Shown here: positions 2,528 through 58,963 of the stretch, one piece after another | Numbering within the stretch: position 1 is the first letter of the stretch | Layout of the letters: each line of letters begins with the position of its first letter | Origin: an uncultured Acidobacteriota bacterium | GTDB taxonomy: Bacteria > Acidobacteriota > Thermoanaerobaculia > Multivoradales > JAHEKO01 | NCBI GenBank assembly: GCA_963713825.1 | Contig: CAVQNG010000014.1 | Span: forward strand, 54,366 to 118,365 | Reading direction: 5' to 3' | Length of the DNA stretch: 64,000 nucleotides | Notes under the pieces: generated by a model | Told to the model about the DNA's origin: nothing | Databases searched by the model: none | Seen by the model: the letters and a program-made list of their open reading frames with translations, nothing else | Program-made: the position numbers and the translations under genes

Positions 2528-3580
2528 TCAAACCTCCAGAACGATCTTGCCGAACTGCTCGCCACTCTCGAGACGGTCGAGCGCCGCTTCGGCCTCGCTC
2601 AGCGGCCACGTCGAGTCGATCACCGGTTCCAGAGAATGGCCCTCGACTGCTGAGAGCATGTCGCGGAAGTCCTTGTCCGAGCCCATCGTGGAGCCGAGAA
2701 TCGAGATCTGCCGCCAGAAGACCTCGCGAATGTTCACGACCCCGTCGGCTCCGGTTGTTGCACCACACGCCACCACGCGGCCGCCATTGCGTGCCGCCGC
2801 GACGCTGGAAGGCCAGGTGGCCGCGCCGACAGTGTCGATCACGAGGTCAACCCCCCGGCCGTCGGTGAACTTGCGGACTATCCCAGCCACCTCGTCCTGA
2901 TCACGGTAGTTGATCCCAAGAAGGGCTCCCAACTCATCGGCGCGCTGAAGCTTCTCGTCCGAGCTGGAGGTCACAATGACTTTGGCATCCAGCAGCCGTG
3001 CCAGTTGGAGCGATGCGAGGGCCGCGCCGCCGCCTATGCCGTGAATCAGAACCGAGTCACCCATCCGCAGATCGCCGCGCGTCATGAGCATCCGCCACGC
3101 GGTCACATGATCCAGGCAGAGTGCAGCCGCCTGCACGAAGGAGAGGTGAGTCGGCTTCGGGTGGAGATTTGCAGCGGGCACGACGATCTTCTCGGCGTAG
3201 GTCCCAGGGATTCCTCGGCCCACCAGGTCGAAGCGAGGGCACTCGCTCTGCTGTCCACGCATGCAGAATTCACACTCGCCGCAGCCCAGTCCGGGGTTCA
3301 GAACCACCTCGGCGCCGACCTCGAGAGTGTCCACCTCCGGACCTAGAGCCGAAACGACGCCGGCCGCGTCGGAGCCGATGATCTGAGGCTCGGCCTCCGG
3401 GTTCGCTGCGTGGTGGGCTCGGGCGTAGAGATCCAGGTGATTCAGCGCCGCGGCGCGTATCTCGAGAAGAGCTTCGCCGGGGCCTGGAACGGGGTCAGGA
3501 ATCGATTCGACCGACATTACGGTCTGCGAGTCCTGTTTGACGAGCGTCGAGGCCAACATGTGCGAAGCAGAATACCGCAT
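2528..3580 (-). CDS. Zinc-type alcohol dehydrogenase / MDR-family NAD(P)-dependent oxidoreductase
   Basis: Contains GPGEALLEIRAAALNHLD, the catalytic-Zn ligand region GLGCGECEFC and the Rossmann motif IHGIGGGAALASLQLA. Start placed at MRYSASHM (ATG at 3580); an ML start at 3558 is also possible. Confidence 0.75.
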   Translation of the reverse strand: MRYSASHMLASTLVKQDSQTVMSVESIPDPVPGPGEALLEIRAAALNHLDLYARAHHAANPEAEPQIIGSDAAGVVSALGPEVDTLEVGAEVVLNPGLGCGECEFCMRGQQSECPRFDLVGRGIPGTYAEKIVVPAANLHPKPTHLSFVQAAALCLDHVTAWRMLMTRGDLRMGDSVLIHGIGGGAALASLQLARLLDAKVIVTSSSDEKLQRADELGALLGINYRDQDEVAGIVRKFTDGRGVDLVIDTVGAATWPSSVAAARNGGRVVACGATTGADGVVNIREVFWRQISILGSTMGSDKDFRDMLSAVEGHSLEPVIDSTWPLSEAEAALDRLESGEQFGKIVLEV

Positions 3581-8732: not shown

Positions 8733-11700
8733 ATGGACAGCAAGGATCCCACCGAGACCGTCGCCACCGAGACGACTGCTCAGGAATCACGCCTGCCCCA
8801 ATTCTCCCTGGACCGTCGCATCACGGTCCTCATGATCCTGCTGACCATGATCGTTCTGGGGACGGTGGCTACGATCAGCATTCCTATCGAGCTCCTCCCA
8901 TCGGGCTTCGCCGGCCCTCACTTGAGCGTGCGGGTGCCATGGCGTGAAGCCCCATCGCAAGAAGTTCTCGACAAGATCGTTCTCCCGCTCGAGGAAGAGC
9001 TCTCCACAGTCGCCGGTATCGATCAGTTGAACTCCTATGCGCGAACGGGCTTCGCCATGTGCAACCTGATGTTCAAGCAGGGCACGGACATGGACGTGGC
9101 CTACCGGGAGGTGCGGGACCGAGTCGAGCGCGCCAGGATCCAGATGCCCGACGATGTGGAGCAGGTCTTTGTCTACAAAGACGACGCTTCAGGCATCCCC
9201 ATCTTCTTCCTGGGCCTGGCCATCGATCCGGCAGTCGTGGACGTTTACAACCTGGTTCAGGACGAGATCGTTCTTCGCCTGCAGCGCGTCGAGGGCGTGG
9301 CCTCTGTCGATGCCCACGGCCTGGAAGAGAAGGAGATCCTGATCGAGCTCGACCGGGAGCGGACCTCGGCCGCGGGACTGAACATCTACGAGCTCGCACA
9401 GCAGCTATCCGGCGATAACTTCACACTCTCCAGCGGCACGGTGTACCAAGGATCCAAGAAGCTACTTTTGCGATCGGTGGCTCGCTACCACAACCTCGAA
9501 GAACTGGAGAATCGCCTCGTAGCAGACAACGTGCGGCTGCGAGACATCGCCACGGTCACCTACGATCTGCCCGAGAAGACCTATCGGGTAAGAGCGATGA
9601 GCCGGCCCGCAGTGGCGCTGGGCATCAACAAGGAGGGCGACGCGAATACCCTGGAAACAGCCCGACGTGTCGAGGCTGTGGTCGAGGAGCTGCGGGAGAA
9701 CCCCCGCCTGCAGCTCATTGAGATAGCGACTCTGTTCGACCAGGGCGAGATCATCAGGGAATCGTTGGACACGATGTTCGACAGCGGCAAGGTCGGAGGG
9801 ATTCTCGCCCTGCTGGTCTTGTTCTTCTTTCTGCGGCGCGTTCGGATGACCCTGATCGTTACGCTGTCGATTCCGGTGAGCATCGTCATTGCTCTGACGG
9901 TGATGTATTTCGTCGGCGAGTCCCTGAACATCCTGACGCTGCTGGCGCTGATGATCTCTGTCGGTCTCCTGGTGGATAACTCGGTCGTAGTGGCCGAGAA
10001 CATCTTCAGATTGCATCGCGAGGGGATGCCACGGCGCCAGGCCTGCATTCAGGGCGCTGGTGAGATTGCTTTGGCGATCGTCATGGCCACCCTGACGACG
10101 ATCGTGGTCTTTCTGCCGGTCTCTCTTGTCGAAGGTATGGGCCAGTTTTTCCTCCTTCGGCTCTCGATCCCCATCTCCGTGGCCCTTCTGGGCTCTCTTC
10201 TGGTGGCGTTGATCTTCATTCCGCTTTTCGTCTTCATCACGCTGCCCGAAAAGGAGGCCGAAAACCACGAGAAGCCTCATCCGATGGCTATTGGCCTCAA
10301 GAAGGCCTACGACCTTACGTTCGGCAAGCTCAATTACTTCTACACCAAGACTCTGGCGTTCTTCCTGCGCCGACGGCTGGATCTCGTGCTGCTGGTGATG
10401 GCGGTGTTCGCTTTGACGGCCGCCTTGCCGATGAAGCAGATCAAATTCGTCGATGTGCAAGACGAAGACCGCGGTGGCTTCGAAATCAACGTCAACTTGC
10501 CGCAAAACACCACCCTGGAAGAGGCTGAGGAGTACTTCCTGGTGGGCGAGAGTCTCATCGAGGAGATGGCGGAGGACCTGGATCTGGACGGGTGGTTCAT
10601 TCAGCACCGCAGCACGTATGGGTCCTTTCAAGGATGGTTCAAAGAGGAGCGCACCAACAAGGTCAGCCCCAAGGAGGCAATGGAACGGGTCAAGGAGCGG
10701 CTGCCGGAGAAGGCCGGTGTCAAGCTCTACACAGGGGAGGACCAACAGGGCGACGAGCGACAGGGCAAAGGCACCCATACCTTCAAGCTCGAAGGCGAGG
10801 ATGCCGAGGCCCTCGAGGTGATAGCGGCCCAGCTGGAGGAGATCTTCGCTTCGGTCGAGGGTGTCGTGGGCGTGAAGAAGGTGGGGGACGACACGCCCAG
10901 CGAGATGGCTCTGGTGCTGGATCGTGAGCGCATGCAGAACCAAAACATCAACCCCATGGTGGTCTCAGCCGTTGTGGGCTACGCCTTGCGGGGTGAGACC
11001 TTGCCTCGCTACCACCAGGCTGGCAAAGAGATTCCGGTCGTCGTGCGCTTCCAGGAGGAAGACCGGGACTCCCTCGACGAGCTCAACAACTTCTGGGTAC
11101 CGACCAACGATGGCGCCGCCGTGCAGTTGTCCTCGATATCCGAGCCCCGCTATCTGGCTTCGGCGCAGCGCATCTTCCGCACCAACAAACGAACATCGAG
11201 GGAGATCACCCTGGAGCTCCGCGAGGAGGAGGAGGAGGAGACGCGGGCCCGGCTCATGGCCATGGCGAGCCTCATCGAGCTGCCTGAAGGTGTGATCTTC
11301 GGTATGGGTGAGAGCATGCTGGGCCTGAGTGAAGACCTTCAGAACATGCTGTTTGCCGGCATCGTATCGGTGATCTTCATCTACCTGCTCATGGGTTTCC
11401 TCTTCGAGAGCTTCATTTTGCCGCTCTCCATCATCCTCACCATTCCCCTGGCCAGCTTGGGGGTCTACTGGGCTCACTTCATCTTCGGGCTGAATATCGA
11501 CTTCCTGGGAGCAGTCGGGTTGATCCTCCTGGTGGGCGTCGTGGTGAACAACGGCATCGTTCTCATCGACTACGTGACGCGACTGAGGCACGCTGGGCAC
11601 AGCAGGCACGAAGCCCTTCTCCTGGCGGCCGAGCGGCGCTTCCGACCCATCATGATGACCGCCCTGACCACCATCGGCGGCATGATCCCGTTGACTGTTC

Positions 11701-39653: not shown

Positions 39654-42600
39654 TCAGGGCCACTCGGGGATCGCGGCCCAGCCGGGGAAGGGCGCGTAGC
39701 CGAGCTTCCAACCAGTCGGGGAGTCGGAATTTTCGACGACTCGAACGTTGGTCCGCGAATGGAGCTCGGCGAGCAGCTCATCATGTGGCAGGGTGTGAAG
39801 GGGTGGTTTAGACATGTCCGGAAAAGGCCAGACTCGCACAGTCCGGTCGTCGCCTACCGAGGCAATCCAACGACCGTCGGGAGACACCGCGATGGTTCGA
39901 ACGAGGCCCCGATGGCCGATTAGTAGGTGCGGTTCCTCTCCCGATACCGGGCCGACTCGCAAGGGACCGTCCAGCCCCCCACTGATGATCCACTGGTCAG
40001 AAGGATGGAGGGCGATCCGGAAGGGGTCTGGATGGGTGTCGAGGCGACGTGTCTCCCTCCCGTCGAGGCTACTCCAGGCAAGGTGGGACCGGAGATCCTC
40101 GGTGCTGTAGGCGTCGCCGTCCCAGTGCACGTCTATTTTGAATTCACCGTTGGAACTGAGTGCCCGTGTCGCGACCATTCCCTCTTCTGCCACTACCTCG
40201 ACACTGTTGTCTTCAAGATCGAAGACTCTCTCTCCACCCGTAGCGCCCGGGACGACCCCCGCGGCCCCGACCCAGCGGAGCCTTCGGTTGTCATCGAAGC
40301 GGAGAAAGGAGGTGCTACCAGGGACCGGTCCCAGTACCTGGACCTTGTTCGTCAGCAGGTCCCAGACACGTATGACCATCTCTTCTGCTGCGCCGTTCAT
40401 CAAGGCGGAAGCTAGTAGACGGCCGTCAGGGCTGAAGTCGAGCTCCATGCCGTAACGACCCCGTCCTGGCCACTCGGCGGGCATCTCTCGAACTTCTCCT
40501 CCCTCGAGCGGAACGATCATCACCGTGGACCAGCTCGAGACCGCCACATTTCTTCCGCTCGGATCGAAGGCCATCGAGGTGAAGCCTCTGAGCCTCTCAT
40601 CAGTGAGCACGCGCATCTTGCCCTCGTTCTGACCTTCGAGCGGCCAGGCAAGCAATCCGTCTCGTCCTACCGATAGCAGAAGCCAACTTCCATCTGGGCT
40701 GAACTGCAGATCACCCGCATTGCCTTCGAACCCATGAAACACAGATCGAGATCGACTGGGCAGGGGCCAGAATGCAGCATTGCCAAGGTAGGCAGAGACG
40801 ACCATCCGGCCACTGGGGTGCAGGGCGACACCGTGTGAAAAGACCTCGTCTGCCTTGCGGAGAACCAGGGGTTCAGCGGCAGGAGGTGCGCTCAAGTCCC
40901 AGAGGCGCACCGAGGCGACGCCTTGCTCCATTCCCCTGAAACCCAGCCACCTTCCGGTCGGGCCATACCCGACCCGGGACCGCACCACGACCCCCTTGAG
41001 GTTGCCCATTGCCAGGGTTCGGAGCGGCCGAGTTGATTCTCCTTCGAGTGACCAGATCTTCAACTCTCCCAACTCATCTCGTGCCGCCACTCGATCCCCT
41101 AAGGGGTGAAACGAGAGCTCCAGAACCTCGGCCGGGTGCTGGCCGACCTGGCGGGGCGCCCGCATCCACTCGTCGAGCGAGCGAATGAAGACCCGGTCCT
41201 GCCTGTTGTAGGCCATCCTCGAGCCGTTGGTGTCGATGTCAAAGGCATTGCCCCAGGCCGGCATACTGCCGATCAGCCGCGACTCACCTTCCTCGTAGGG
41301 CCACCAGCGAATTTCTGCCACCTCCTCATCCACCGAAACGCTGTAGTAACCATCGCCGCTCGGAGCGTGGAGTTGTCCCCGGCTGTCTTCGGCACTGCGA
41401 AGTTCCCTTCCCTCGGGAATGGAGAACCAGCGGAACTCACCCTGCTTCTCGATAATGACCAGGTCATCGAGCGGGAACGCGACTGCCGGTGGATACAGCT
41501 GATTCGGATAGTTGACAAGAGTGATAGCTTCCTTGCCATCTTCGGGAAGCACGGTCACCCTGTCCCACCCGTTGATCGCCAGCCACTCCCCGCTCGGGCT
41601 GAACACGAGGCCAGAAGCCCGAGACTCCTCGTTCGCCGGAAGTACTGTTGCCGGGGGAGCCATCTGGAGCGCACGCAGGGCGAGCATGCGCCCCTCCTCG
41701 GTGTCGAAGACCTCGAGGCTCTTGGTCGCCCAGGCGAGTGCGGCGGTCGGATATCTGTCGATCTCGAGCTCGCCCAGGGCCAGCAGGCGACCGGATTCCG
41801 CCCGGAGACGTTCCTGCTCAGCCCGATGCCAGAAGCCAGCGACAATGGTCAGACCAACAAGGAGAAGAGTAATGACCGTGGTGACCGCAATTCCTTTCTG
41901 CCGCCTGCGGCGCTCAGCAAACGAGGTCATCGCCCTCGCGAAGGCCTCCTCGGTATCCGTCAGTCCACCTGGGTAACGCTCGCGCCAAAGCTCGTACTCC
42001 TTGAATGCGTTCCCGGTCCAGAGATAGTCCTCGGAGCGGCGGTGCTCCTCCCAGATCCGGGCCTGGCTGCGAAGCTCGTCGCGAAGCTGTGCTCCTTCGG
42101 CGTCTTGTGTCTGCCATCGCACCAGCCGCGGCCAGTTTGAAAGCAGGGACTCGTGGATGATCTCGATGCGGTGGTGCAGCCCACCGCCTTCCTCGTCGGC
42201 AGGGACCTCGAAGGAGGTGAGGAGGCGAGCGTCGATGAGGGTGGACAGGACGCTCGCCGCTGCGCTGCGAGACCCCGCGCCAGCGGTGCCCTGTTTGTCG
42301 AAGACCGAGAACAGCTCCTGGCGGTCTCGAGAATCGCGGGTGCCCTCGGCGGTGACGAGATTGCGAAAGATCTCACGCACAATCGGCACGTTGGCTTCGC
42401 CGATGTAGTCGAGAGTCGCCTCCGCATGCTGAGCCAGGGCCCCACTCACGCCGCCGATTTGGTGGTAGCTCTTGCGAGTCAGGAGTCCGGTCTCGCGGTC
42501 GCGGCGGTCCCAGAGCTGGGCGGCGGCAAACGCGAGCAAGGGCAGGGCACCACGCTGGCCTTCGATCTCGCCCAGCATCTGCTCCACGATTCCTTCGTCC

Positions 42601-44210
42601 TCGAAGCCGTAGCCGCACCGCAGGGCTGGCTCGACCAGAGCCCGCCGCAGAGCTGCCCCGGTCGGAGCACCCAGGAGTGTCAGATCCGTGAGGATAGGCC
42701 GCAAGGCCTCGAAGTGATGACAATGGAACAGAAAATCATCCCGCATCGAGAGCAGGACGTGAATGTCGACTTCGAGGGGCAATCGACCCAGCACATCGGC
42801 GAACGATGACTGTACTATTGCAGTGTTCTGGGTGAAGAGCTCTTCGAATTGATCGACGATGAGGAGCGCGTGCGTGTGACTTCGACGCCACTCGGTCAGC
42901 AACTCGACCGCGACGTCGGGATCCTCGAGGTGTTGCAGGAGGTAGCTTGCGCTCGGCACATCGCGTAGCTCCACGGGCAGTGCTCGAGCGAGGTGGTCGA
43001 ACGGTCGGTTCCCTGGAGTCATCACGAGCGCTTGCCAGCCGTCGATCAGCGTGGGTAGCAAGCCCGCCCTCAGGAAGGAACTTTTTCCAGCACCTGAAGG
43101 CCCGATGAGAGCGAGCAGATGAGGCCGCCTAAGCTTCTTCCACAGCGATTCGATTTCCAGCTCTCTGCCGTAGAAGTGATCCGCATCCTCCTCTTGGAAG
43201 GCTGCCAATCCCGGATAGGGGCGGGCCTGTTCGTCACCGACGGCTCGTAGAGTCACCTCCTCGAGGGCTCTGGCCAGCTCTGCCGCGCTCGAGAAGCGTT
43301 CGCCGGGAGCCGGCGTAGCACACCGACGAATCACGCGTGACCAGGGGGTCTCGGTCACATGGGGTCCTTCCTGATGGAGTGCCTCCCAGATCGCTTGTCG
43401 ATCCTCGAAGGTCTTGACCCCATGCGGTTCAACCATCTCCGCCAGAAGGATGCCGGCTGAGAAGACATCCGAGCGGGCATCCAGATCGGCGCCCCGGGCT
43501 TGCTCGGGGGACATGTAGGGCGGTGTCCCGGCTACGAAACCACTTCTGCTGTCGCCAAGGCCTTTGGTGATGCCGAAGTCCATGACGACGACCCGGCCGG
43601 TGCGGGTCATCATGACGTTCTCGGGCTTGATGTCGCGGTGCACGAGGCCGGCATCGTGAATCGCTTCCAGTCCCGCCAGGAACTGCGAGGCGATCTCTCG
43701 GGCTTCAACGAGGTCCAGGGGAGAGCGCTCCTCGAGAATCTCCTGGAGCGTCGTCCCATCGATGTACTCCATCAGCACCAGCTCCTGGCCGTCGAGTTCC
43801 TCGAGATCGTAGACGCGGCAGACGTTGGGTGAGATCACTCGGCGTGCCGCTCGGACTTCCTTGCGCAGGGCCTCGAGCGCTTCCCTGTTCTGGATCAGCT
43901 CGGGGCGCAGTGCTTTCAGTGCCACATCCTGACGGAGCTTCAGGTCGTAGGCTCTCCAGACGTCACCCATGCCGCCTCGCCCGACAAGCGAGCGAAAACG
44001 GTAGCGACCGCCGAGGACTCGGCCTTCCTGGAAGGTGTCGCCTGGAGGGAGGTGCTCTCGGTCTACTTCCGACTCCGCCAACACCTCGGCCTCGATAGAG
44101 GTGTCGTCGAGTGCCATCGAAAGAAGGCAGCTCGGGCACAGTCCTTCGCTACCACCCTTCCTCGAAAGGGGTACCCCACATGTCGGGCACTGGACCGATG
44201 CGGCCTTCAT
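39654..44210 (-). CDS. Multidomain Ser/Thr protein kinase: Zn-ribbon, Pkinase, nSTAND P-loop NTPase, TM helix, WD40-type beta-propeller
   Basis: Start [16 protein letters not shown]...CPSC with a GGAGAG RBS. Kinase motifs [12 protein letters not shown] and [23 protein letters not shown] followed by [14 protein letters not shown] (Walker A). One TM helix ([19 protein letters not shown]). C-terminal WD40/PQQ-like repeats. Confidence 0.85.
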
Positions 44211-44287
44211 GGTCTCTCTCCCATCCTCGGCCGTGGGCATCCACGGTCGTCAGGCTCGAGAGAAATAGACCGAAGCCAGGCTAGGTG

Positions 44288-45016
44288 TTACTTCACTTGG
44301 CCTGACTGGGGTTTCACGACTTCCAGGAGATGCCGAATCTCATCATCGACATCATCGGGGTCGGCGACGATCTCTGATATTTCGGTGCGCAGGCACTGGC
44401 CGAAGCGCTTTCGAAGGCGGTGGACGGCGGTTCTCACCGCCCCTTCGTTCATACCCAGGGCATGGGCGACCTGGTTGTAGGGTGCCTGAGGCTCCGCGCT
44501 GGTCAGGTACTGCCTGAGCAGTTCGAATTGGTTCGGATCGCCGTAGGCATTTGACTGATCGCGTAGGCGATCCATAGCGCGGTCGAGTACAGTCAACGCC
44601 CAACCCTCCTCGAAGACTTCCTCCGGTGTGCGACTGGCAGGCTCGCCCTCGTAGAACTCCTCAGCGACGTCGGTGGCCAGAGACAGTACCCGGGTCCTGC
44701 CACCACGCTTGAGAGTTCGGTCCCGTCTTCGCTCGTGTGCGAGGAAGTGACGGAGAGATGCCAGCAGGAAGGAGCGAAATCGACCTTTCGACGGATCGAC
44801 GTTAGCCAGGAGATCCTTCTCCATGAGCTCTGTGAAGAAGCCTTGCGTCAAATCCATGGCTTCGTCGGGACTCGAGCCATGGTGCCGGATATAGGCGTAG
44901 AGGGGCTGCCAGTAGGTCTGGCAGAGGCTTTCCAGGGCCGCCCGCGCTTCCGTGTCGGAACCGTCTCTGGCGGCGAGTACCTGGCTCCACTGAGTCGTGG
45001 CCACCTTGCCGCTCAT
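44288..45016 (-). CDS. ECF-type RNA polymerase sigma-70 family factor
   Basis: Region 2 (DLTQGFFTELMEK...FRSFLLASLRHFLAHERRR) and region 4 HTH (QVAHALGMNEGAVRTAVHRLRKRF). Directly upstream of the kinase on the same strand. Confidence 0.8.
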   Translation of the reverse strand: MSGKVATTQWSQVLAARDGSDTEARAALESLCQTYWQPLYAYIRHHGSSPDEAMDLTQGFFTELMEKDLLANVDPSKGRFRSFLLASLRHFLAHERRRDRTLKRGGRTRVLSLATDVAEEFYEGEPASRTPEEVFEEGWALTVLDRAMDRLRDQSNAYGDPNQFELLRQYLTSAEPQAPYNQVAHALGMNEGAVRTAVHRLRKRFGQCLRTEISEIVADPDDVDDEIRHLLEVVKPQSGQVK

Positions 45017-52996: not shown

Positions 52997-53102
52997 CGCC
53001 CTGATCTTTCCCCTTCGACACCCCGCTCAGCCAGAATCGAACGGGGCGGTAGACTATCAGCTGAGCGGTCGGACACGCTTCAGCTTCTCTTCTCGGGCCT
53101 CG

Positions 53103-53378
53103 CTAGGCGGGTGTGGCGACCGGATTTGAATTCACCGGCATGAGCGGTTTCTGGTGCGGGTGGGGTGAAATGATGAGCAGGGGGTCGGTACTCGAGATCA
53201 TGGTGGCGCCATGCTTGGCAAAGACCTCACACAGGATAGGCCCCATGAACAGGTGCGCAGTGGCCAGGAAGACCGAGAGCTGCTGGCGTCGAGCCAGGTT
53301 CTCGAGGACGAGGTGACGTCGAGTTCGGAAGGCTGAAGATGTGGACCGGAGGAACACTCCAAGAAGGCGAATCATCAC
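53103..53378 (-). pseudogene. Fragment of a DDE (rve/integrase-core type) transposase N-terminus
   Basis: RRHLVLENLARRQQLSV matches the RRDFVLENLALRHQLAV N-terminus of the fragment at 56194. The rest of the frame is non-protein-like. Confidence 0.4.
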
Positions 53379-53462
53379 GCGGAGAGGATATCCGCTACCG
53401 GTGTGAAGGCTGCTGTCTACTGGACGGATGAGAAAACGACAGGGACAACCGAGGGTCAGCCA

Positions 53463-56042
53463 CTAGCCGCTACTGGTCTCGGCGAGAAAACGCTCGTGGC
53501 ATGCCTTGCCGGCGGCGCGGACGTCGGCCCACTCCTCGGCAAACTCGGGATCATTGCGCAGGCTGGCAATCAGAGGATCGGTATCGATGTGCGGGTACGA
53601 GCAGTAACCCCCATCGATCGCCCGCTCCAACAACTCTAGAGCGACCTCGTGCTCGCCGGCGAAAGCAAAAATGGCCGCATTCCAGTGGACCTGCTCCACG
53701 TCATTGAGGAGGTCCGTGAAACCCATCTCTTGCTGCAGTACCTCCGGCGCCATGGTCCGATCTTCCAAAACGGGCTCGAGACTCGCTGCCAGGATGGTAT
53801 AGCTCGTATTCCGTGACAGCTCCAGCGCCTCCTCGAGGCGCCCTTGCCGTATCCGAACGACGGCCAGATTGCCAAAGTAGAAGTCGTTGCCAGGACTCAG
53901 ATCGAGGAACTGCTCGGCCCGATCGTAGCGACTCGCCAGGTAGTTGGTGATGCCGCACGATCGAAAGCCTGGGTTGTTCGGGTCGAGACCGAGGGCCGTA
54001 TCGCAATCCCGCACCGATTGCTCGATCGCACCGGCATAGCGCAAAAGGTAGGCGCGGAGAAAATAGACCCGGCCAACTCTTGGGCGCTGTTCGATCAACT
54101 GACTCGCGGCCCTGTAGGCCTTGGCCAGCTCACCACGCTCGATATCGATCATGATGACCCGCACTTGTGGCTCGATCAGCTCGGGATCGAGCTCCAAGGC
54201 CCGGTGGGCAGCTTCGATGGCCCTGTCACTGTCCTCGAATGTACCGCCGCCGTAAAGCACGTAGAAATGCAGGCGATTGGCCAGCTCTCCCCAGGCTGGC
54301 GCGTAGTTCGGGTCGAGCTCGACGGCCCGCTCCACCAGGGCCAAAGCCTCGCTATTCGGAGCGGGATCCGAGCTCATCGAGAGGCTACGTAGATAGAAAT
54401 TGTACGCTTCCTCGTTGGTCGGCAACGTACCGGTCGACGCCAGCGTGGCGCCGGGATCGAGAATCGGCATCAATCCCTGCTCCACCCTCTCGGCCACCGC
54501 TTGGCGGAGCGACAAGAGCTCCTGCCATCCAACCACGACACTGTCTCGCCAGACCACGCTATTGCCATCGACATCGATAGCCTCGAGCGTCAGTCTCAGC
54601 TGATCCCCCTCTTTGAGATACTGACCCGTCACCACGTTGGCAACACCAAGCTCTCGCCCGAGGGTCAAGGGATCTGTTCCCGCGGTATCGAGCCGCGAGG
54701 TGGTCGAGAAGGGGCGAATCGACAGACCCGAGCCGCGACTCAAGGCCGTCGTGATTTCATCAGGCACCGCCAGTCGCAGATAATCCAGCTCGGCGTTCGC
54801 GCCGAGATTGGCAAACGGCAGCACGGCAACAGAGCGCGGATCCTGCTCTTCAGCTGCGACTGCAACCGCATCGGTGGTCTCGGTTGGAGCCGATGTTTGC
54901 CGGCCCTGCCACCAGAAGATTCCCACAACGAGGATCCCCGCTGCTGCGACGATTGCCCCGAGCAGACCCCACGGACGCCTCGCTTCTGGCTGCGGTCCAC
55001 TAACTTGCGCCGGGACCTCGGCGACGGACGAAGCCGGATCAGTCACAACCGTCGCGCCGCCGCTGACCGCAGACGCTGGTGCACTCACAGGTGGCCCTGG
55101 AGCGCTCGAAACGGGCCCGCTCGCCGCAGCTCCCTGGAGCACGGGTGTCCCGGTGGTCGTCGAGAGCTGCCCCGAGTCGACCTCGCCGCGGAGCCCTTCA
55201 AGCTCATTGCGCACGTCTTTGGCCGACTGGTAGCGCCGCTCCGGGTCTTTCTCCAAACAGTGCTGAATGATCCGCGCCAGGTGGCGCGGCAGATCGGCCC
55301 GCATCTCGACCACCGAGGACGGCGTGTCCTTCAGGATGCTCGAAGCTAGCTCGATCCCCGAGTCGCCTTGAAAGGGTCGCCGACCGGTGACCATCTCATA
55401 GAGCAAGATGCCGAACGAGAAGATATCGGTGCGCGAGTCCACCTCTTTACCGCTCAGCTGCTCGGGACTCATGTAGGGCGCGGTGCCCATGACAGTGCCT
55501 TCGCCGGTCAGCGCTGCCGATTGCGTCAGCGCTTCGGTCGCCACATCCAAAAATGTAGTCGGCGAGGTTTCCGTCGCCAGCTTAGCGAGCCCGAAATCCA
55601 AAACTTTGATATTGCCGTCGGCGGTGACCATGACGTTGGCTGGCTTCAAATCCCTATGGGTGATGCCCTTCTCGTGCGCTGCCGCCAAGGCATCGGCCAG
55701 CGGAATGGCATACGCAAAGACCTCGGCCAGCGGCATTCCACCCGGCGGCAGAACCCGATCGAGGCTCCTGCCCTCGACCTTTTCCATCACCAGCAAACGC
55801 CGTCCCTCGGCCTCTTCCACATTGAACAGCGTGACGATATTGGGATGATTGAGCGATGCCACAGCCCGCGCCTCGCGCCGAAACCTCTCCAAGCGCTCCG
55901 GGCTCTCCTCGGCCATCGGCGGCAAGATCTTCAGTGCAACCTCCCGGCCGAGCTCCGTATCCTCGGCCAGATAGACCTCACCCATCCCACCCTCACCGAG
56001 CTTCGCAACGATTTTGTACCGCGAGAGAGTCTTTCCGATCAT
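53463..56042 (-). CDS. Ser/Thr protein kinase with TM helix and periplasmic TPR-repeat domain
   Basis: Start MIGKTLSRYKIVAKLGEGGMGEVYLA. Kinase motifs HRDLKPANVMV and DFGLA. Pro/Ser/Ala-rich linker and one TM helix. C-terminal TPR-like repeats. Confidence 0.85.
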   Translation of the reverse strand: MIGKTLSRYKIVAKLGEGGMGEVYLAEDTELGREVALKILPPMAEESPERLERFRREARAVASLNHPNIVTLFNVEEAEGRRLLVMEKVEGRSLDRVLPPGGMPLAEVFAYAIPLADALAAAHEKGITHRDLKPANVMVTADGNIKVLDFGLAKLATETSPTTFLDVATEALTQSAALTGEGTVMGTAPYMSPEQLSGKEVDSRTDIFSFGILLYEMVTGRRPFQGDSGIELASSILKDTPSSVVEMRADLPRHLARIIQHCLEKDPERRYQSAKDVRNELEGLRGEVDSGQLSTTTGTPVLQGAAASGPVSSAPGPPVSAPASAVSGGATVVTDPASSVAEVPAQVSGPQPEARRPWGLLGAIVAAAGILVVGIFWWQGRQTSAPTETTDAVAVAAEEQDPRSVAVLPFANLGANAELDYLRLAVPDEITTALSRGSGLSIRPFSTTSRLDTAGTDPLTLGRELGVANVVTGQYLKEGDQLRLTLEAIDVDGNSVVWRDSVVVGWQELLSLRQAVAERVEQGLMPILDPGATLASTGTLPTNEEAYNFYLRSLSMSSDPAPNSEALALVERAVELDPNYAPAWGELANRLHFYVLYGGGTFEDSDRAIEAAHRALELDPELIEPQVRVIMIDIERGELAKAYRAASQLIEQRPRVGRVYFLRAYLLRYAGAIEQSVRDCDTALGLDPNNPGFRSCGITNYLASRYDRAEQFLDLSPGNDFYFGNLAVVRIRQGRLEEALELSRNTSYTILAASLEPVLEDRTMAPEVLQQEMGFTDLLNDVEQVHWNAAIFAFAGEHEVALELLERAIDGGYCSYPHIDTDPLIASLRNDPEFAEEWADVRAAGKACHERFLAETSSG

Positions 56043-56193
56043 GTCTGCAGACCGATTGTAGAACTTCCAGCCCCCGCATGGGAGGGCGCAAGGCCCTGTA
56101 GGGCGCCAGAACCCCATCCGCCCAACGAAATCGTTGACACCCTGCAGTGATCGCCGGCTGACTGAGCTGATGCTCTAGATCTTCTTCACGATC

Positions 56194-56550
56194 GTGAGGA
56201 CGCTCCGATCTGCCCTCAAGGTTCGGCGAGATTTCGTCCTCGAGAACCTGGCACTTCGACACCAGCTCGCTGTCCTGACGCGCTCGGGTAACCGTCCCCG
56301 CTTTCGCCCAGCTGATCGCTTTCTCTGCACCTGGCTCCGGTCTCTCTGGGACTGTTGGAGACAATCGCTTGTCCTCGTTCTCCCGGCAACCGTCGTTCGC
56401 TGGCATCGCGAGGGTTTCCGGCGATATTGGGCTCGGAAGTCTCGTCGCCAGCCGGGTAGACCGCGAGTCGATCCAGAGCTCTTGAGACTCATCCGCCTGA
56501 TGGCCACTACAAACCCACTTTGGGGAGCGCCTGATCGGTTCTGTCCGGCG
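56194..56550 (+). pseudogene. Truncated DDE transposase N-terminal region (HTH part only)
   Basis: VLENLALRHQLAVLTR...RFLCTWLRSLWDCWRQSLVLVLPATVVRWHREGFRRYWARKSRR..GRPRVDPELLRLIRLMATTNPLWGAP is the conserved N-terminus of rve-type transposases. The catalytic DDE domain is missing and the frame degenerates after WGAP. Confidence 0.5.
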
Positions 56551-57037
56551 CGAGTGCCTCGATCACGTAATCGTCCTTGGAGAGGCACATTCGCGCCACG
56601 TCCTCGGCACCCACTTCGCCTACTACCAGCGCTCGAGAATCCACCTCTTCCTGAACAAAGATGCTCCCAACCCGACAGACATCCAGCCACCGGCGATGGG
56701 TGAGGTCATCGAGCTACCCGAAGTCGGTGGGCTCCATCATCGCTACGAACGCCGGGCGGCCTGACCACTGGACCGCCTCTCCGAGATCAGCGCCCTCTAG
56801 CCCGCCCCAAAGCTGGACCGCTGCGCCCGAGCCCCGAACGCGGCCCGCAGAAGTCACCGCTCCGACCCTGGCACGGGCCAGTCGGCGTGCGCCCATCGAA
56901 GGATCGGAGCCCAATCCCGCGCATAATCGGCCAGACGGGGTTTACGATACGGACAAGGAGATTGCACATACCAATGGACCGTGGATGGACCATGTGAGCT
57001 GGAGGTGTCTAGTGTCGCCACTTGACCTTACGGCAAA

Positions 57038-57105
57038 TGTCCTGTTTTGAGGGAGTTGCTTGGCGCGCCGGCAGGGACTCGAACCCCGAACCCCCAGATC
57101 CGAAG
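57038..57105. repeat. Direct repeat of the tRNA-Arg 3' half plus ~20 nt of trailer (att-like)
   Basis: 45 nt (tggcgcgccggcagggactcgaaccccgaacccccagatccgaag) are identical to 58887-58931. The preceding gttttgagggagttgc resembles the tRNA trailer gtttgagggagttgag. Confidence 0.7.
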
Positions 57106-57171
57106 CAGGGGGGTTCAGGGACTTCTCAGAAGGTTCTCTTGAGCCCCTGGGACCGTTTCGGCAAAGCTGAG

Positions 57172-57693
57172 CTAGGGCTTCCCGCCGTCAGAAACTCGGA
57201 AACCCAGAGGATTCAGTAGTAGTTCAGGTGCGACGACCTCGGGTTGCTTCATGTCGAGCGGTCTACAGGGCGAGTGGGCCAGGAACAGCGACAACTCGAG
57301 CAGAGTCATTTCGGGCTCGGTGGCCAGAATGTCCCTGGTCATGTGGGTGAAATCGGTCATCGATCCAAGCACCACGCGGCTGTTTGTCCGTCCGTAGTAC
57401 ATTGGATCCATCAGGGACAACTCGCGATCGATAGCCTCTTGCGGAACCTTCAGCGCGAGGAGCACGTCTGTGAGAAGTCTCAGGAATCGCTTTTCAAAAT
57501 GGTCGAGATCCCGAGCTGTCGTGACGATCGGGAGCAGGGACCGCTCGCTGACCAGGATTAGAAAGTGCCCCTGCGGGGTGTAGACGATGTTTGCGAACCA
57601 ATCTCCCAGCCGATTCTCTGGAGGGGGCGGCTCGCCTGGATCTCGGATTCCCAGCCGTTTGAGGAGCTTCGCCGTGCATCGAAGGGTCGTCAT
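57172..57693 (-). CDS. Hypothetical protein (islet cargo)
   Basis: 173-aa ORF with balanced composition and no recognizable motifs. Confidence 0.4.
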   Translation of the reverse strand: MTTLRCTAKLLKRLGIRDPGEPPPPENRLGDWFANIVYTPQGHFLILVSERSLLPIVTTARDLDHFEKRFLRLLTDVLLALKVPQEAIDRELSLMDPMYYGRTNSRVVLGSMTDFTHMTRDILATEPEMTLLELSLFLAHSPCRPLDMKQPEVVAPELLLNPLGFRVSDGGKP

Positions 57694-57758
57694 GGTTCTT
57701 CCTCGTCCAATGCAGATGGGGGCAGAAAGCCGTGCCTGATGAAGAAGCCTCCTGGGAA

Positions 57759-58097
57759 TCAGTCAGCGAGAGTCCGCTCGAGAGCATCGATCATCTCGCG
57801 CAGATCAGTCGACACGACATTCCAGACAATGTCATGGTCCACCGCGGCGTAGCCGTGTACCAGACGATTCCTCATGCCGATGATTTCCTTCCAGGGAATC
57901 TCGGGCGAGTTCGCCCTGGTCGAAGGTGAGACCTTGCTCGCAGCCTCGCCGATGACCTCGACAAAGCGCTCCAGGGCTGCAGCCAGGATCAGGTCAGAGT
58001 CGAGATCTGATCGATCCTTCTCTGCGACCGCTTCAACTGCCCGGCGGGCGTGATCGAGCATGTCGCGAAGGAGAACGTTGTCTTCAGGCGGCCTCAT
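57759..58097 (-). CDS. hepT: HepT-family toxin (HEPN domain, DUF86)
   Basis: C-terminal HEPN R-x4-H motif in MRNRLVHGY. Overlaps the MNT gene by 14 nt. Confidence 0.75.
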   Translation of the reverse strand: MRPPEDNVLLRDMLDHARRAVEAVAEKDRSDLDSDLILAAALERFVEVIGEAASKVSPSTRANSPEIPWKEIIGMRNRLVHGYAAVDHDIVWNVVSTDLREMIDALERTLAD

Positions 58098-58386
58098 AGA
58101 TGGGTATCGCTTCGGCAGTCACGCGATCGCGGAAGTGTGGGCTGAGGAACCCGGGTGTGTTCAGGTCGACCTCTCGCCCGACCAGGTTTGACAGTTCATC
58201 CTGTATAGCGATGAATTGCAGGCCTACGTTGTGCCCCGGGATGAACTCGACGAGCAGGTCAATGTCGCTGTCTGGATGCAGTTCGCGCCGCGCAGCCGAT
58301 CCGAAGACAGCCAAGCGGCGAATGCCATGTTGCCGACACAGCTCAGCGAGCTTTCGTTGGTCGATCTCGAGTACTGCCCGGTTCAT
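58084..58386 (-). CDS. mntA: MNT-family nucleotidyltransferase antitoxin
   Basis: LAVFGSAARRELHPDSDIDLLVEF is the GS-x9-DxD polymerase-beta-type NTase motif. Confidence 0.75.
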   Translation of the reverse strand: MNRAVLEIDQRKLAELCRQHGIRRLAVFGSAARRELHPDSDIDLLVEFIPGHNVGLQFIAIQDELSNLVGREVDLNTPGFLSPHFRDRVTAEAIPIYEAA

Positions 58387-58783
58387 CGCCTCGTGATGAT
58401 ACCGCAGTGAGGCTGAGTGGTAAGGGGCGGGTGAGGTCCTCTAGTGGGTGGGACGTGAGGTGGAGAAGGGCGTAGGTACAGCCCCCGTCAGTCTGCCGAA
58501 CGCGAGCGACAGGGTAGAACTGGAGAACTACTCTCAGGTGTGAGTCAGGAAGCTGCGTCTGAAGTACCGACACCAAGCGCCGGGCTTCGAGCCTCAGCGA
58601 GTATCGGCCGTTCACTCTCTCGAACTGATTTGCCTTCGTCTGGCTGTGAGGAAGGGTAGCGAGAACGAACATTCTTGGCATGAAACCAAGAGCGCCGGCC
58701 TCGTGAACATCTCGAATTTCGATGGGAAGAACTCGAGCGGAGGGCCGGTCTTCCAACAGCAGGTGCTGGCGCATCAAGCCCAC
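58343..58783 (-). CDS. Hypothetical protein (islet cargo, doubtful)
   Basis: 146-aa ORF overlapping the MNT gene by 44 nt. No motifs recognized. Confidence 0.3.
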   Translation of the reverse strand: MGLMRQHLLLEDRPSARVLPIEIRDVHEAGALGFMPRMFVLATLPHSQTKANQFERVNGRYSLRLEARRLVSVLQTQLPDSHLRVVLQFYPVARVRQTDGGCTYALLHLTSHPLEDLTRPLPLSLTAVSSRGDEPGSTRDRPTKAR

Positions 58784-58886
58784 CGCAATCCCTGCCTGCG
58801 CACCAATAGCGCACCAAATCGCCGATTTGGGGGTCTGAGGCCGACTCCAAGAATCGATGTAAATGTCTTAGTTTGAGGGAGTTGAG

Positions 58887-58963
58887 TGGCGCGCCGGCAG
58901 GGACTCGAACCCCGAACCCCCAGATCCGAAGTCTGGTGCTCTATCCAATTGAGCTACCGGCGC
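58887..58963 (-). tRNA. tRNA-Arg (anticodon TCG)
   Basis: The reverse complement GCGCCGGTAGCTCAATTGGATAGAGCACCAGACTTCGGATCTGGGGGTTCGGGGTTCGAGTCCCTGCCGGCGCGCCA folds as a 77-nt cloverleaf. 7-bp acceptor stem, D-arm GCTC/GAGC, anticodon stem CCAGA/TCTGG with loop CTTCGGA, T-arm CGGGG/CCCTG with TTCGAGT loop, and an encoded CCA. Confidence 0.85.

What the first reader, a model, noticed from the sequence alone, without database searches (positions are those of the whole stretch)
53103..56703. TPR Ser/Thr kinase gene bracketed by inverted N-terminal fragments of rve-type transposases
Both flanks begin with paralogous LVLENLA(L/R)R(H/Q)QL(A/S)V transposase N-termini. One is on each strand, 85 and 152 nt from the kinase gene ends. 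Both are truncated before the DDE domain. The arrangement looks like the remains of a composite-transposon-like structure that delivered the kinase, or like repeated IS decay at this locus.
Basis: partly seen in the sequence, partly recalled or inferred. Interest (0 to 1): 0.5.

Follow-up and report, generated by a model that had tools for sequence, protein, structure and literature searches.

The report
Decayed insertion sequences flanking a kinase gene
An intact Ser/Thr kinase gene in an uncultured Acidobacteriota genome sits between dead, partly deleted copies of two related insertion sequences; this looks like ordinary insertion-sequence decay beside a tRNA integration hotspot, with no evidence that a transposon delivered the kinase.

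Summary
Both flanks carry genuine N-terminal pieces of a very large family of about 330-aa rve_3/HTH_32 DDE transposases.

The left piece (53252-53447, minus strand) is a 196-nt 5' end: terminal inverted repeat plus 42 codons. Its terminus lies 15 nt after the kinase stop codon.

The right piece is not simply truncated. It is an 859-nt element (56097-56955) with both terminal inverted repeats. It joins the 5' part of a second lineage ('B', 112 codons) to the 3' part of the left piece's lineage ('A', 86 codons, 3' UTR and right repeat). The join is a 7-nt microhomology, and the DDE core is missing.

The kinase (53463-56042) is intact. Its composition matches the rest of the window, and a conserved upstream motif survives in the 54-nt spacer. 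A 78% orthologue in a related genome has no such transposase within 10 kb.

Two near-identical relatives (about 98% DNA identity over the shared stretch) carry different insertion-sequence contents at the same junctions, and one has nothing downstream of the kinase. No target-site duplication is detectable, and no intact copy occurs in the window.

Best reading: nested insertions and deletions around a resident gene next to a tRNA-Arg islet. Composite-transposon delivery is not supported. Interest is low.

The parts
53252..53447 (-). 'A5' remnant': 196-nt 5' end of insertion-sequence lineage A. It holds the left inverted repeat TGTCCCTGTCGTTTTCTCATCCGTCCAG (about 53420-53447, terminus at 53447), a 69-nt leader and the first 42 codons (GTG 53378; MMIRLLGV...RRHLVLENLARRQQLSVFLATAH).
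   Evidence: 83.7% over 196 nt to the 5' end of the L097/L098 element, starting exactly at its terminus. P0003 matches at 84% over 25 aa. Homology stops at 53252. The same break is present in L113.
53103..53251 (-). It is non-homologous read-through into region 'X' (52997-53251), the stretch upstream of the efflux adaptor gene. It is not transposase.
   Evidence: No tblastn or blastn match to any family member. Pfam finds nothing.
53463..56042 (-). Intact Ser/Thr kinase gene, 859 aa: Pkinase domain, a predicted membrane-spanning stretch (read by eye, not tested), a 'TolB-like' middle region (JGI's name for homologues) and TPR repeats. The likely start is ATG 56042. The longer ORF to 56117 would begin inside the insertion-sequence repeat.
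   Evidence: Pfam Pkinase 2e-53 plus TPR families. The NCBIfam TPR end-of-group domain at residues 789-835 shows the C-terminus is complete. Homologues align from residue 1 of the 859-aa form. GC, GC3, codon and tetranucleotide usage are typical of the window.
56055..56068 (-). Conserved motif GGAAGTTCTACAAT, 13-26 nt upstream of the kinase ATG, inside the 54-nt spacer (56043-56096). It is inferred to be the core promoter or 5' control element that the insertion left in place.
   Evidence: Identical in L111 and present in the 78% orthologue L112. A similar GTTCTACAAT precedes a second kinase gene in L111. The function is an inference; the sigma-70 consensus scan found no promoter-like site in this region.
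56097..56529 (+). 'B5'': 5' part of lineage B. It holds the left inverted repeat TGTAGGGCGCCAGAACCCCATCC (56097-56119/23), a leader, and 112 codons from GTG 56194 (MRTLRSALKVRRDFVLENLALRHQL...NPLWGAP).
   Evidence: 72% aa to P0001 and 71% nt to its element L096, but only 54% aa to P0003. The repeat matches the family consensus (L109 TGTGCCTCGCCAAAACCC) and the element's own right repeat at 16 of 27 positions, counted by eye. Weak Pfam HTH_32 hit.
56525..56531 (+). Deletion junction GAGCGCC. The 7 nt read as (W)GAP of the N-terminal part and as ERL of the C-terminal part. About 130-135 codons holding the DDE core are missing.
   Evidence: The N- and C-terminal tblastn segments overlap at 56504-56532 in two frames. 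The blastn match to the L097 3' part starts at 56525. The sequence was read.
56531..56955 (+). 'A3'': 3' part of lineage A. It holds the last about 78 codons (LIGSVRRECLDH...GGLHHRYERRAA*, stop 56763-56765), a 190-nt 3' region and the right inverted repeat CCAGACGGGGTTTACGATACGGACA (56931-56955).
   Evidence: 84.1% over 441 nt to the 3' part of L097 and 83.9% to L098, ending at their termini. 81% aa to P0003 and 85% to P0043. Translation.
57062..57105 (+). Context: displaced copy of the 3' 44 nt of tRNA-Arg, an att-like direct repeat, 106 nt beyond the right element's end.
   Evidence: Exact 44-nt repeat of 58888-58931, none expected by chance. The alignment shows about 25 nt more of partial identity.
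58887..58963 (-). Context: tRNA-Arg(TCG). Together with the repeat at 57062-57105 it delimits a 1.78-kb integrase-less islet (DUF6933, HepT/MNT toxin-antitoxin pair).
   Evidence: ARAGORN, Rfam, Pfam.

Best explanation
This is a resident, intact Ser/Thr kinase gene whose two intergenic flanks were colonised by members of one very abundant, unnamed family of single-ORF DDE (rve_3 + HTH_32) insertion sequences. Those copies have since decayed.

At least two lineages are involved.
- **Lineage A**, closest to the P0003/L097 element, inserted 15 nt after the kinase stop. It was then cut back to its first 196 nt by a deletion that now joins it to the region upstream of an RND efflux operon.
- **Lineage B**, closest to P0001/L096, inserted 54 nt upstream of the kinase start.
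- A lineage-A copy lying beyond B was fused to it by a microhomology-mediated deletion (GAGCGCC). That deletion removed B's 3' half, A's 5' half and both catalytic cores.

The result is an 859-nt element with a B left repeat and an A right repeat. No remnant can encode an active transposase, and no intact copy lies in the 64-kb window.

The site lies about 100 nt from the old 3' flank of tRNA-Arg, next to a small integrated islet, in a region where mobile DNA accumulates.

Shown: the anatomy, the lineage assignments, the junctions and the variation between strains. Inferred: the order of events, the tandem A-B ancestor, and that the kinase keeps its own promoter within the 54-nt spacer.
For: - **Family and size.** More than 7,800 homologues exist, full length 320-336 aa. 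The window pieces cover only residues 1-42 on the left, and 1-112 plus the last 78-86 on the right.
- **Termini.** They were defined from copies seen in several contexts: TGTGGTTCCCG.../...CGGGAACCACA in ten contigs, and TGTCCCT... and TGTGCCTCGCCAAAACCC... in others. The window's left piece begins exactly at such a terminus, and the right element ends exactly at one.
- **Lineages.** The left piece and the right 3' part are 83.7% and 84.1% identical to the same element (L097). The right 5' part aligns to L097 over only 39 nt, but at 71% over 309 nt to L096. Best protein relatives differ for the N part (P0001, 72%) and the C part (P0043/P0003, 85%/81%).
- **Resident kinase.**
  - Its composition is native.
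  - The 78% orthologue in a 1-Mb contig lies in a kinase cluster with no transposase hit within 10 kb.
  - The upstream motif GGAAGTTCTACAAT is shared with that orthologue.
  - Only 1 of 86 loci fetched with the kinase or efflux-adaptor queries (768 kb) carries this family.
- **Strain variation at fixed junctions.**
  - L113 has the same gene order, at 98.7% identity. It carries a 372-nt mini lineage-A element abutting a 23-nt stub of the B repeat, instead of B5'+A3'.
  - L111 (98.3%) carries a longer, uninterrupted lineage-A copy at that same stub and nothing downstream of the kinase. Its homology to the window ends at 53448, one base from the A terminus.
- **Decay is common in the family.** Several database proteins are independent internal-deletion forms: P0001, P0003, P0004, P0028, P0041, P0053, P0104.
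Against: - The locus was never seen empty in any relative, so the kinase's arrival at this site cannot be dated relative to the insertion sequences.
- Lineage-A parts lie on both sides of the kinase in inverted orientation, and the right element's outer end is an A right repeat. Both facts are also what a decayed lineage-A-based composite, or an inversion between inverted copies, would leave.
- Conservation between the window and the 78% orthologue's locus ends within the short spacers on both sides. Relocation of the gene is therefore possible.
- The remnants differ between the window and L113 far more than the neighbouring genes do (11-13% against 0.5-1.2%). Simple shared ancestry of the remnants does not explain this.
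- The chimera inference rests on relatives that are only about 72-85% identical. The negative N-versus-C identity correlation is partly a selection artefact, because hits were picked by total score.
Confidence: 0.7

Rival explanations
1. Decayed composite transposon. Two lineage-A copies in inverted orientation, left repeats facing in and right repeats outermost, once bracketed the kinase and moved it as cargo into the gap between the efflux operon and tRNA-Arg. Later, lineage B inserted and deletions erased most of both arms.
For: Lineage-A sequence lies on both sides in inverted orientation, with equal divergence from L097 (83.7% and 84.1%). The right outer end is an intact-looking A right repeat at 56955. 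The elements sit very tight against the gene (15 and 54 nt). The kinase's neighbours differ entirely from those of its 78% orthologue.
Against: - The kinase-proximal end on the right is lineage B, not A.
- There is no target-site duplication, and the left outer end is missing, so the defining test cannot be passed.
- L111 carries the kinase with no insertion sequence downstream and with an apparently native continuation, an intergenic stretch and a second kinase gene start.
- The kinase's composition is native.
- The family is not associated with this kinase family elsewhere: 1 of 86 fetched loci.
- No second copy of the unit was found.
Confidence: 0.1
2. One lineage-A copy split by a rearrangement. 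Lineages A and B once flanked the kinase in inverted orientation. Recombination between them inverted the kinase segment and produced A5'/B3' and B5'/A3' hybrids, which were later trimmed by deletions. The left remnant and the right 3' part would then be halves of the same original copy.
For: Left A5' and right A3' show the same identity to L097. They are in opposite orientation on either side of the kinase. The right element is a B5'/A3' hybrid.
Against: - The B5'/A3' junction joins non-homologous positions (codon 112 to about codon 245) through a 7-nt microhomology, which indicates deletion rather than homologous crossover.
- No B3' sequence follows the left remnant.
- L113 and L111 carry lineage A upstream of the kinase in the same orientation as the window's A3'. 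That fits a lineage-A copy that always lay upstream, plus a separate A insertion downstream.
Confidence: 0.15
3. Chance similarity of short GC-rich reading frames; no mobile element is present.
For: None beyond the shortness of the left match at the protein level (25-42 aa).
Against: The left flank matches L097 over 196 nt at 83.7%, starting at the element's terminus (E 3e-56). There is a 19-nt exact core between the flanks. The right flank scores E 2e-70 against family members. Both termini carry the family's repeat consensus.
Confidence: 0.01

Closest known systems
IS481 family insertion sequences (ISfinder)
   Same: A single transposase ORF with no programmed frameshift. An rve-type DDE catalytic domain preceded by an HTH region. 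Termini TGT...ACA with imperfect inverted repeats of about 25 nt. Element length about 1.2-1.35 kb, measured terminus to terminus on L009, L087, L088, L099 and L109. PMC10045372 describes IS3, IS481 and IS1202 transposases as mutually related, with IS481-like elements encoding one protein.
   Different: Full-length relatives score 69-75 bits against the NCBIfam IS481 model, whose cut-off is 224. No 2-15 bp target duplication was visible around the relatives examined. NCBI annotation calls them only 'integrase core domain-containing protein'. The window copies are dead fragments.
IS3 family insertion sequences
   Same: Best NCBIfam hit (84-85 bits). TG...CA termini. An rve-superfamily core (Pfam model rve_3). 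A coiled-coil-like N-terminal LENLALRQQL segment reminiscent of OrfA leucine zippers; that last point is my own recollection and was not tested.
   Different: The score is below the cut-off of 160. The family has one continuous ORF of about 330 aa rather than orfA/orfB joined by a -1 frameshift. No 3-5 bp duplications were seen.
Composite (compound) transposons such as Tn10 and Tn5
   Same: A cargo gene lies between two inverted insertion-sequence-derived arms.
   Different: The arms here are fragments of two different lineages. The outer end of one arm is missing. There is no target duplication and no transposase. The same gene occurs without one arm in a 98%-identical haplotype.
Internally deleted, non-autonomous insertion-sequence derivatives (MITE-like elements)
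   Same: The right element (859 nt), and even more the 372-nt element in L113, keep both terminal repeats but lack the catalytic core. Several database proteins are comparable deletion forms.
   Different: There is no evidence that they have been mobilised. Each was seen at one site only, and the window's version has mismatched ends (a B left repeat and an A right repeat).

Membership tests
rve-superfamily DDE transposase insertion sequence (IS3/IS481/IS1202 supergroup) | Transposase with an rve-type catalytic core (Pfam rve/rve_3) in full-length relatives | tested here: met
   Full-length relatives carry PF13683 rve_3 and PF13565 HTH_32. The alignment keeps invariant D, D and E columns, though I did not check these against the known catalytic residues. 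The window fragments themselves lack the core.
rve-superfamily DDE transposase insertion sequence (IS3/IS481/IS1202 supergroup) | Terminal inverted repeats with TG(T)...(A)CA ends bounding the element | tested here: met
   The ends were defined by where similarity breaks among ten contexts and by inverted-repeat search in L009, L087, L088, L098 and L109. Window termini are at 53447, 56097 and 56955.
rve-superfamily DDE transposase insertion sequence (IS3/IS481/IS1202 supergroup) | Short target-site duplication flanking the insertion | tested here: inconclusive
   No duplication lies at 56094-56096 (CCC) versus 56956-56958 (AGG). None is visible in the relatives examined either. Short-read contigs can join the flanks of different copies, and the window element may be a fusion of two insertions.
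IS481 family (NCBIfam NF033577) | Score at or above the curated cut-off (224 bits) | tested here: not met
   P0012 scores 74.6 bits and P0024 69.2 bits.
IS3 family (NCBIfam NF033516) | Score at or above the curated cut-off (160 bits), and two ORFs with a -1 frameshift | tested here: not met
   Scores are 84.7 and 83.5 bits. The relatives have a single uninterrupted ORF of 317-336 aa.
Composite transposon | Two copies of the same insertion sequence, or copies recognised by one transposase, bracketing the cargo | tested here: inconclusive
   The kinase-proximal parts are lineage A on the left and B on the right, which align over only 52 nt. However, lineage-A sequence, including a right repeat, is present on the right outer side.
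Composite transposon | Target-site duplication outside the two outer ends | not testable with these tools
   The left outer end has been deleted; the remnant stops at 53252.
Composite transposon | The unit is present or absent as a block between relatives, or recurs at other sites | tested here: not met
   L111 has the kinase and the upstream insertion sequence but no downstream arm. L112 has the orthologue with no transposase hit within 10 kb. No second copy of the unit was found in the window or in any fetched locus.
Hanks-type (eukaryotic-like) Ser/Thr protein kinase | Pkinase domain with the catalytic HRDLKPxN, DFG and APE-type motifs | tested here: met
   Pfam PF00069 at 2e-53. HRDLKPAN, DFG and PYMSPE can be read in the translation.

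The most novel reading that the evidence does not exclude
The kinase gene with its 15-nt and 54-nt spacers may be, or may once have been, a mobile cassette moved by lineage-A ends into the tRNA-Arg-proximal gap. Alternatively, members of this family may home onto each other's terminal repeats: in two haplotypes lineage A sits exactly 23 nt inside the B left repeat. Ongoing gene conversion from active copies would then explain why the remnants differ by 11-13% between genomes whose neighbouring genes differ by about 1%.
Probability: 0.1. Interest if true: 0.4.

Novelty: new member of a known kind. Interest (0 to 1): 0.15.

Why it matters
It matters little beyond annotation.
- The ORFs at 53103-53378 and 56194-56703 should be annotated as insertion-sequence pseudogene fragments, not as genes.
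- The kinase start should be placed at 56042, not 56117. The longer ORF borrows its first codons from an insertion-sequence repeat.
- The locus is a compact example of how nested insertions, microhomology deletions and strain-specific trimming produce mosaic elements with mismatched ends in an uncultured Thermoanaerobaculia-like lineage.
- It also provides end definitions (TGTCCCT.../TGTGCC...) for a very abundant transposase family. NCBI's IS3 and IS481 family models do not capture it, and the matches I found in NCBI-annotated plasmids are called only 'integrase core domain-containing protein'. I did not check whether ISfinder names it.

If the minority reading were right, it would be a case of signalling-gene mobilisation by insertion sequences in Acidobacteriota, which is of moderate interest.

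Tried and rejected
- **Source lookup.** An exact-sequence lookup of the window's kinase, in both the 884-aa and 859-aa forms, found nothing on record. Close relatives appeared only through the homology search and the cluster listing.
- **Genome scan.** The genome-contig scan with the efflux adaptor gave only distant relatives (58% or less) with no synteny upstream. It was not informative for presence or absence.
- **Metagenome scan.** The metagenome-contig scan with the kinase returned paralogues at 61% best-segment identity or less (44% for the top-ranked locus). I used them only as a background set for insertion-sequence association.
- **Viral contigs.** Only 7 partial transposase loci were found, and I did not use them.
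- **First guess at the right repeat.** I initially placed it just after the stop codon (CCACTGGACC, about 56767). I dropped this once L097 and L098 showed the element runs to 56955.
- **Alternative left end for the right element** (AGGCCCTGTAG, 56091). I rejected it in favour of 56097 because of the match to L109, L096 and the element's own right repeat, and because L111 and L113 share the junction ACA|GGGCCTTGCG.
- **Target-site duplications.** None were found here or in relatives.
- **Transposase remnants in region X (52997-53251).** None were found.
- **A third copy of the tRNA-Arg att repeat** that would place the kinase inside an older island. Only two copies exist.
- **Promoters, terminators and RNA families.** The sigma-70 and terminator consensus scan was no better than shuffles. 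Rfam found only the tRNA.
- **Domesticated truncated transposase.** I considered that the 169-aa right ORF might act as a regulator. I rejected this because L113 lacks that part entirely.


Full report
**1. The observation**

The interval holds three long ORFs.
- A Pkinase + TPR gene at 53463-56117 on the minus strand. Its likely true start is 56042 (MIGKTLSRYKI...), because homologues align from that residue.
- A 91-aa ORF at 53103-53378 (minus strand).
- A 169-aa ORF at 56194-56703 (plus strand).

A six-frame motif scan finds E-N-L-A-x-R-x-Q-L only twice in the 64-kb window, at 53277-53303 (minus) and 56242-56268 (plus). The two flanks share a 52-nt inverted match at 77% (53271-53322 and 56223-56274) with a 19-nt exact core. 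Nothing else aligns between them.

**2. What the fragments are**

A search with the right-hand sequence returns more than 7,800 proteins. Most are 317-336 aa and carry rve_3 (PF13683) and HTH_32 (PF13565). NCBIfam places full-length members below the cut-offs of both the IS3 and the IS481 models. Annotated plasmids call them 'integrase core domain-containing protein'. IS3, IS481 and IS1202 transposases are known to be related to one another (PMC10045372).

In an alignment with full-length members:
- The right ORF covers residues 1-112 and stops being homologous at ...NPLWGAP.
- The left ORF is homologous only for its first 42 residues...LSVFLATAH.
- tblastn finds the missing C-terminus of the right copy in another frame: 56504/56531-56765, LIGSVRRECLDH...GGLHHRYERRAA*.
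- The two segments overlap on GAGCGCC (56525-56531), which reads as G-A-P in one frame and E-R-L in the other. About 130-135 codons, including the DDE core, were therefore removed by a deletion at a 7-nt microhomology.

**3. Element ends**

Ten contigs carry the same relative (P0064). They are identical between TGTGGTTCCCGGAAATTCCG... and ...CGGGATTTGCGGGAACCACA and unrelated outside those points, which defines the ends. Other relatives have TGTCCCTACCG..., TGTCCCTGTCGT... and TGTGCCTCGCCAAAACCC... as inverted repeats.

The closest DNA relative is the element on L097/L098, which encodes P0003.
- Window 53252-53447 aligns to its first 196 nt at 83.7%, starting at its terminus TGTCCCTGTCG.
- Window 56525-56955 aligns to its last about 435 nt at 84.1%, ending at its terminus ...ACGA(C/T)A(C/A)GGAC(A/G).

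The left remnant's terminus (53447) is therefore 15 nt beyond the kinase stop codon. The right element's far end is at 56955.

The right element's near end is TGTAGGGCGCCAGAACCCCATCC, starting at 56097, 54 nt from the kinase ATG. It matches the L109 repeat and the element's own right repeat in register. It continues into sequence shared with L096, the P0001 element.

**4. Two lineages**

- The right 5' part is 71% identical over 309 nt to L096, but aligns to L097 over only 39 nt.
- The right 3' part is 84% identical to L097, but aligns to L096 only over the last 84 nt.
- At the protein level the N part is closest to P0001 (72%), with P0003 at 54%. The C part is closest to P0043 and P0003 (85% and 81%), with P0001 at 63%. 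The left fragment is closest to P0003.

I call these lineage B (right 5' part) and lineage A (left remnant and right 3' part). The right element is thus a B5'/A3' mosaic with mismatched ends.

No target duplication flanks it (CCC before 56097, AGG after 56955). None is visible around the relatives examined either, so this test is uninformative.

**5. The kinase**

- It is intact. It has the catalytic motifs and a complete C-terminal TPR end domain.
- GC (0.622), GC3 (0.733), codon-usage distance (0.17) and tetranucleotide distance all fall within the range of the other window genes.
- Another Ser/Thr kinase (Pkinase-nSTAND1-WD40, 1,528 aa) lies 10 kb away. These genes are common in the relatives as well.
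- Of 86 loci totalling 768 kb, fetched with the kinase query (80 loci) or the efflux-adaptor query (6 loci), only one carries this transposase family.

**6. Relatives**

The homology search found close orthologues.

*L112* (78% aa, 1-Mb contig). The orthologue lies among other kinase genes, with no efflux operon and no transposase hit within 10 kb. DNA conservation with the window runs only from the stop codon to 32 nt upstream of the ATG. That stretch includes the motif GGAAGTTCTACAAT, window 56055-56068.

*L113* (GCA_942492515.1). It has the same gene order as the window, from the dynamin-like GTPase through acyl-CoA dehydrogenase, tRNA-Arg, the islet, the kinase, the left remnant, region X and the efflux operon. 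Identity is 98.7% over 56119-48337.
- Upstream of the kinase it carries a 372-nt lineage-A mini-element instead of B5'+A3'. This consists of the last 275 nt, equal to window 56955-56681, joined to the first 97 nt including the left repeat.
- That mini-element abuts a 23-nt stub of the B left repeat at the same junction, ACA|GGGCCTTGCG.

*L111* (98.3%, 4.2-kb contig). It has a longer, uninterrupted lineage-A copy of at least 143 codons abutting a similar 23-nt stub.
- Downstream of the kinase it has no insertion sequence. Homology to the window ends at 53448.
- L111 then continues with about 85 nt of intergenic DNA, the first 32 codons of another kinase gene, lower-GC sequence and an unidentified minus-strand ORF.

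Three points follow.
- The junctions 'B repeat to kinase' and 'A right repeat to tRNA-proximal flank' are shared.
- What lies between those junctions differs between strains.
- The downstream arm is absent in one haplotype.

**7. Most likely history (inferred)**

1. A lineage-B element inserted 54 nt upstream of a resident kinase, leaving the conserved motif next to the gene.
2. A lineage-A element lay just beyond it, on the tRNA-Arg side.
3. In the window's lineage, a microhomology deletion fused B codon 112 to about A codon 245.
4. In the L113 and L111 lineages, the A left end came to abut position 23 of the B repeat, either by insertion or by an end-adjacent deletion. In L113 the A copy then lost its interior.
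5. A separate lineage-A insertion 15 nt after the kinase stop, shared by the window and L113, was cut back to 196 nt by a deletion. That deletion now places region X and the efflux operon next to it.

The site lies 106 nt from a displaced 44-nt copy of the tRNA-Arg 3' end (57062-57105, identical to 58888-58931). This repeat marks a 1.78-kb integrase-less islet. The area is therefore a sink for mobile DNA.

**8. Rivals**

- A decayed lineage-A-based composite transposon remains possible, because lineage-A sequence lies on both sides in inverted orientation and the right outer end is an A right repeat. It fails or cannot take every defining test (see the membership table), and L111 contradicts block-wise presence.
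- An inversion between inverted A and B copies would explain the A halves on opposite sides. However, the B/A junction is at non-homologous positions, and no B3' sequence follows the left remnant.
- Chance similarity is excluded.

**9. Unexplained**

Between the window and L113:
- The kinase, adaptor and pump genes differ by 0.8%, 1.2% and 0.5%. Kinase third codon positions differ by about 1.5%.
- The left remnant differs by 11.2%, the 23-nt stub by 13%, region X by 5.9% and the A3' part by 3-5%.

Relaxed constraint alone seems insufficient to explain this. Conversion by other insertion-sequence copies, or recombination between strains at this locus, are candidates that I could not test.

**10. 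Verdict**

This is a real feature, correctly spotted and partly mis-described. It is ordinary nested insertion-sequence decay around a resident gene. The elements are unnamed members of a known kind of DDE insertion sequence. Interest is low.

Noticed in passing
window 57062-57105 and 58888-58931; islet 57106-58886: An exact 44-nt direct repeat of the 3' end of tRNA-Arg(TCG), plus about 25 nt of partly conserved flank, brackets a 1.78-kb islet with no integrase. The islet carries a DUF6933 gene (57172-57693), a HepT/MNT toxin-antitoxin pair (57759-58386) and a 146-aa ORF with no Pfam match (58343-58783).
   Followed up: partly
L113 4035-6381 versus window 57082-58882: In the 98%-identical genome the islet is only 90% identical. 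It lacks the region of the 146-aa ORF. It has 971 extra bases with a 188-aa ORF (weak TerB hit, below the Pfam cut-off) that replace most of the distal tRNA repeat. The islet is therefore evolving or being exchanged faster than its surroundings.
   Followed up: partly
window 53252-53447, 56097-56119 and 52997-53251 versus L113: The insertion-sequence remnants and the stretch upstream of the efflux operon differ by 6-13% between two genomes whose flanking genes differ by 0.5-1.2%. Possible causes are conversion by other insertion-sequence copies or a local recombination hotspot. This remains unexplained.
   Followed up: partly
window 56055-56068 (minus strand); L112 about 9960-9985; L111 about 3228-3240: The motif GGAAGTTCTACAAT lies 13-26 nt upstream of the kinase ATG. 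It is conserved in the 78% orthologue, and a similar GTTCTACAAT precedes a paralogous kinase start. It may be a shared promoter or control element of this kinase family.
   Followed up: partly
proteins P0001, P0003, P0004, P0028, P0041, P0053, P0104; L113 6508-6876: Many database members of this transposase family are independent internal-deletion forms. They keep the N-terminal DNA-binding part and the C-terminal tail but lack the DDE core. The window's junction uses a 7-nt microhomology (GAGCGCC) created by the conserved WGAP and VERL codons, which may make this deletion recurrent.
   Followed up: partly
L107 13-468 and about 344: In an unrelated metagenome contig, a member of the same family (P0064) has inserted into a Ser/Thr kinase gene just after the kinase domain. 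I judge this coincidental, given how many such kinases these genomes carry and the 1-in-86 association rate.
   Followed up: partly
window 39654-44240 (minus strand): A 1,528-aa protein combines a Pkinase domain, a STAND NTPase (nSTAND1) and WD40 repeats. An ECF-type sigma factor gene (44288-45016) lies next to it.
   Followed up: no
L113 about 8832, equivalent to window 54164: The kinase in GCA_942492515.1 carries a 1-nt insertion that splits it into 618-aa and 229-aa ORFs. This is either a pseudogene in that strain or an assembly error.
   Followed up: no
window 53023-53031 and 53060-53068: A 9-nt perfect inverted repeat, CCGCTCAGC ... GCTGAGCGG with a 28-nt spacer, lies 27-72 nt upstream of the efflux adaptor gene start (52996). 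It may be an operator or hairpin. It was read directly from the sequence.
   Followed up: no
L111 3261-3900: Downstream of the 98%-identical kinase, a second kinase gene stops after 32 codons. It is followed by lower-GC sequence of unknown origin, so another rearrangement breakpoint lies at this locus in that strain.
   Followed up: no
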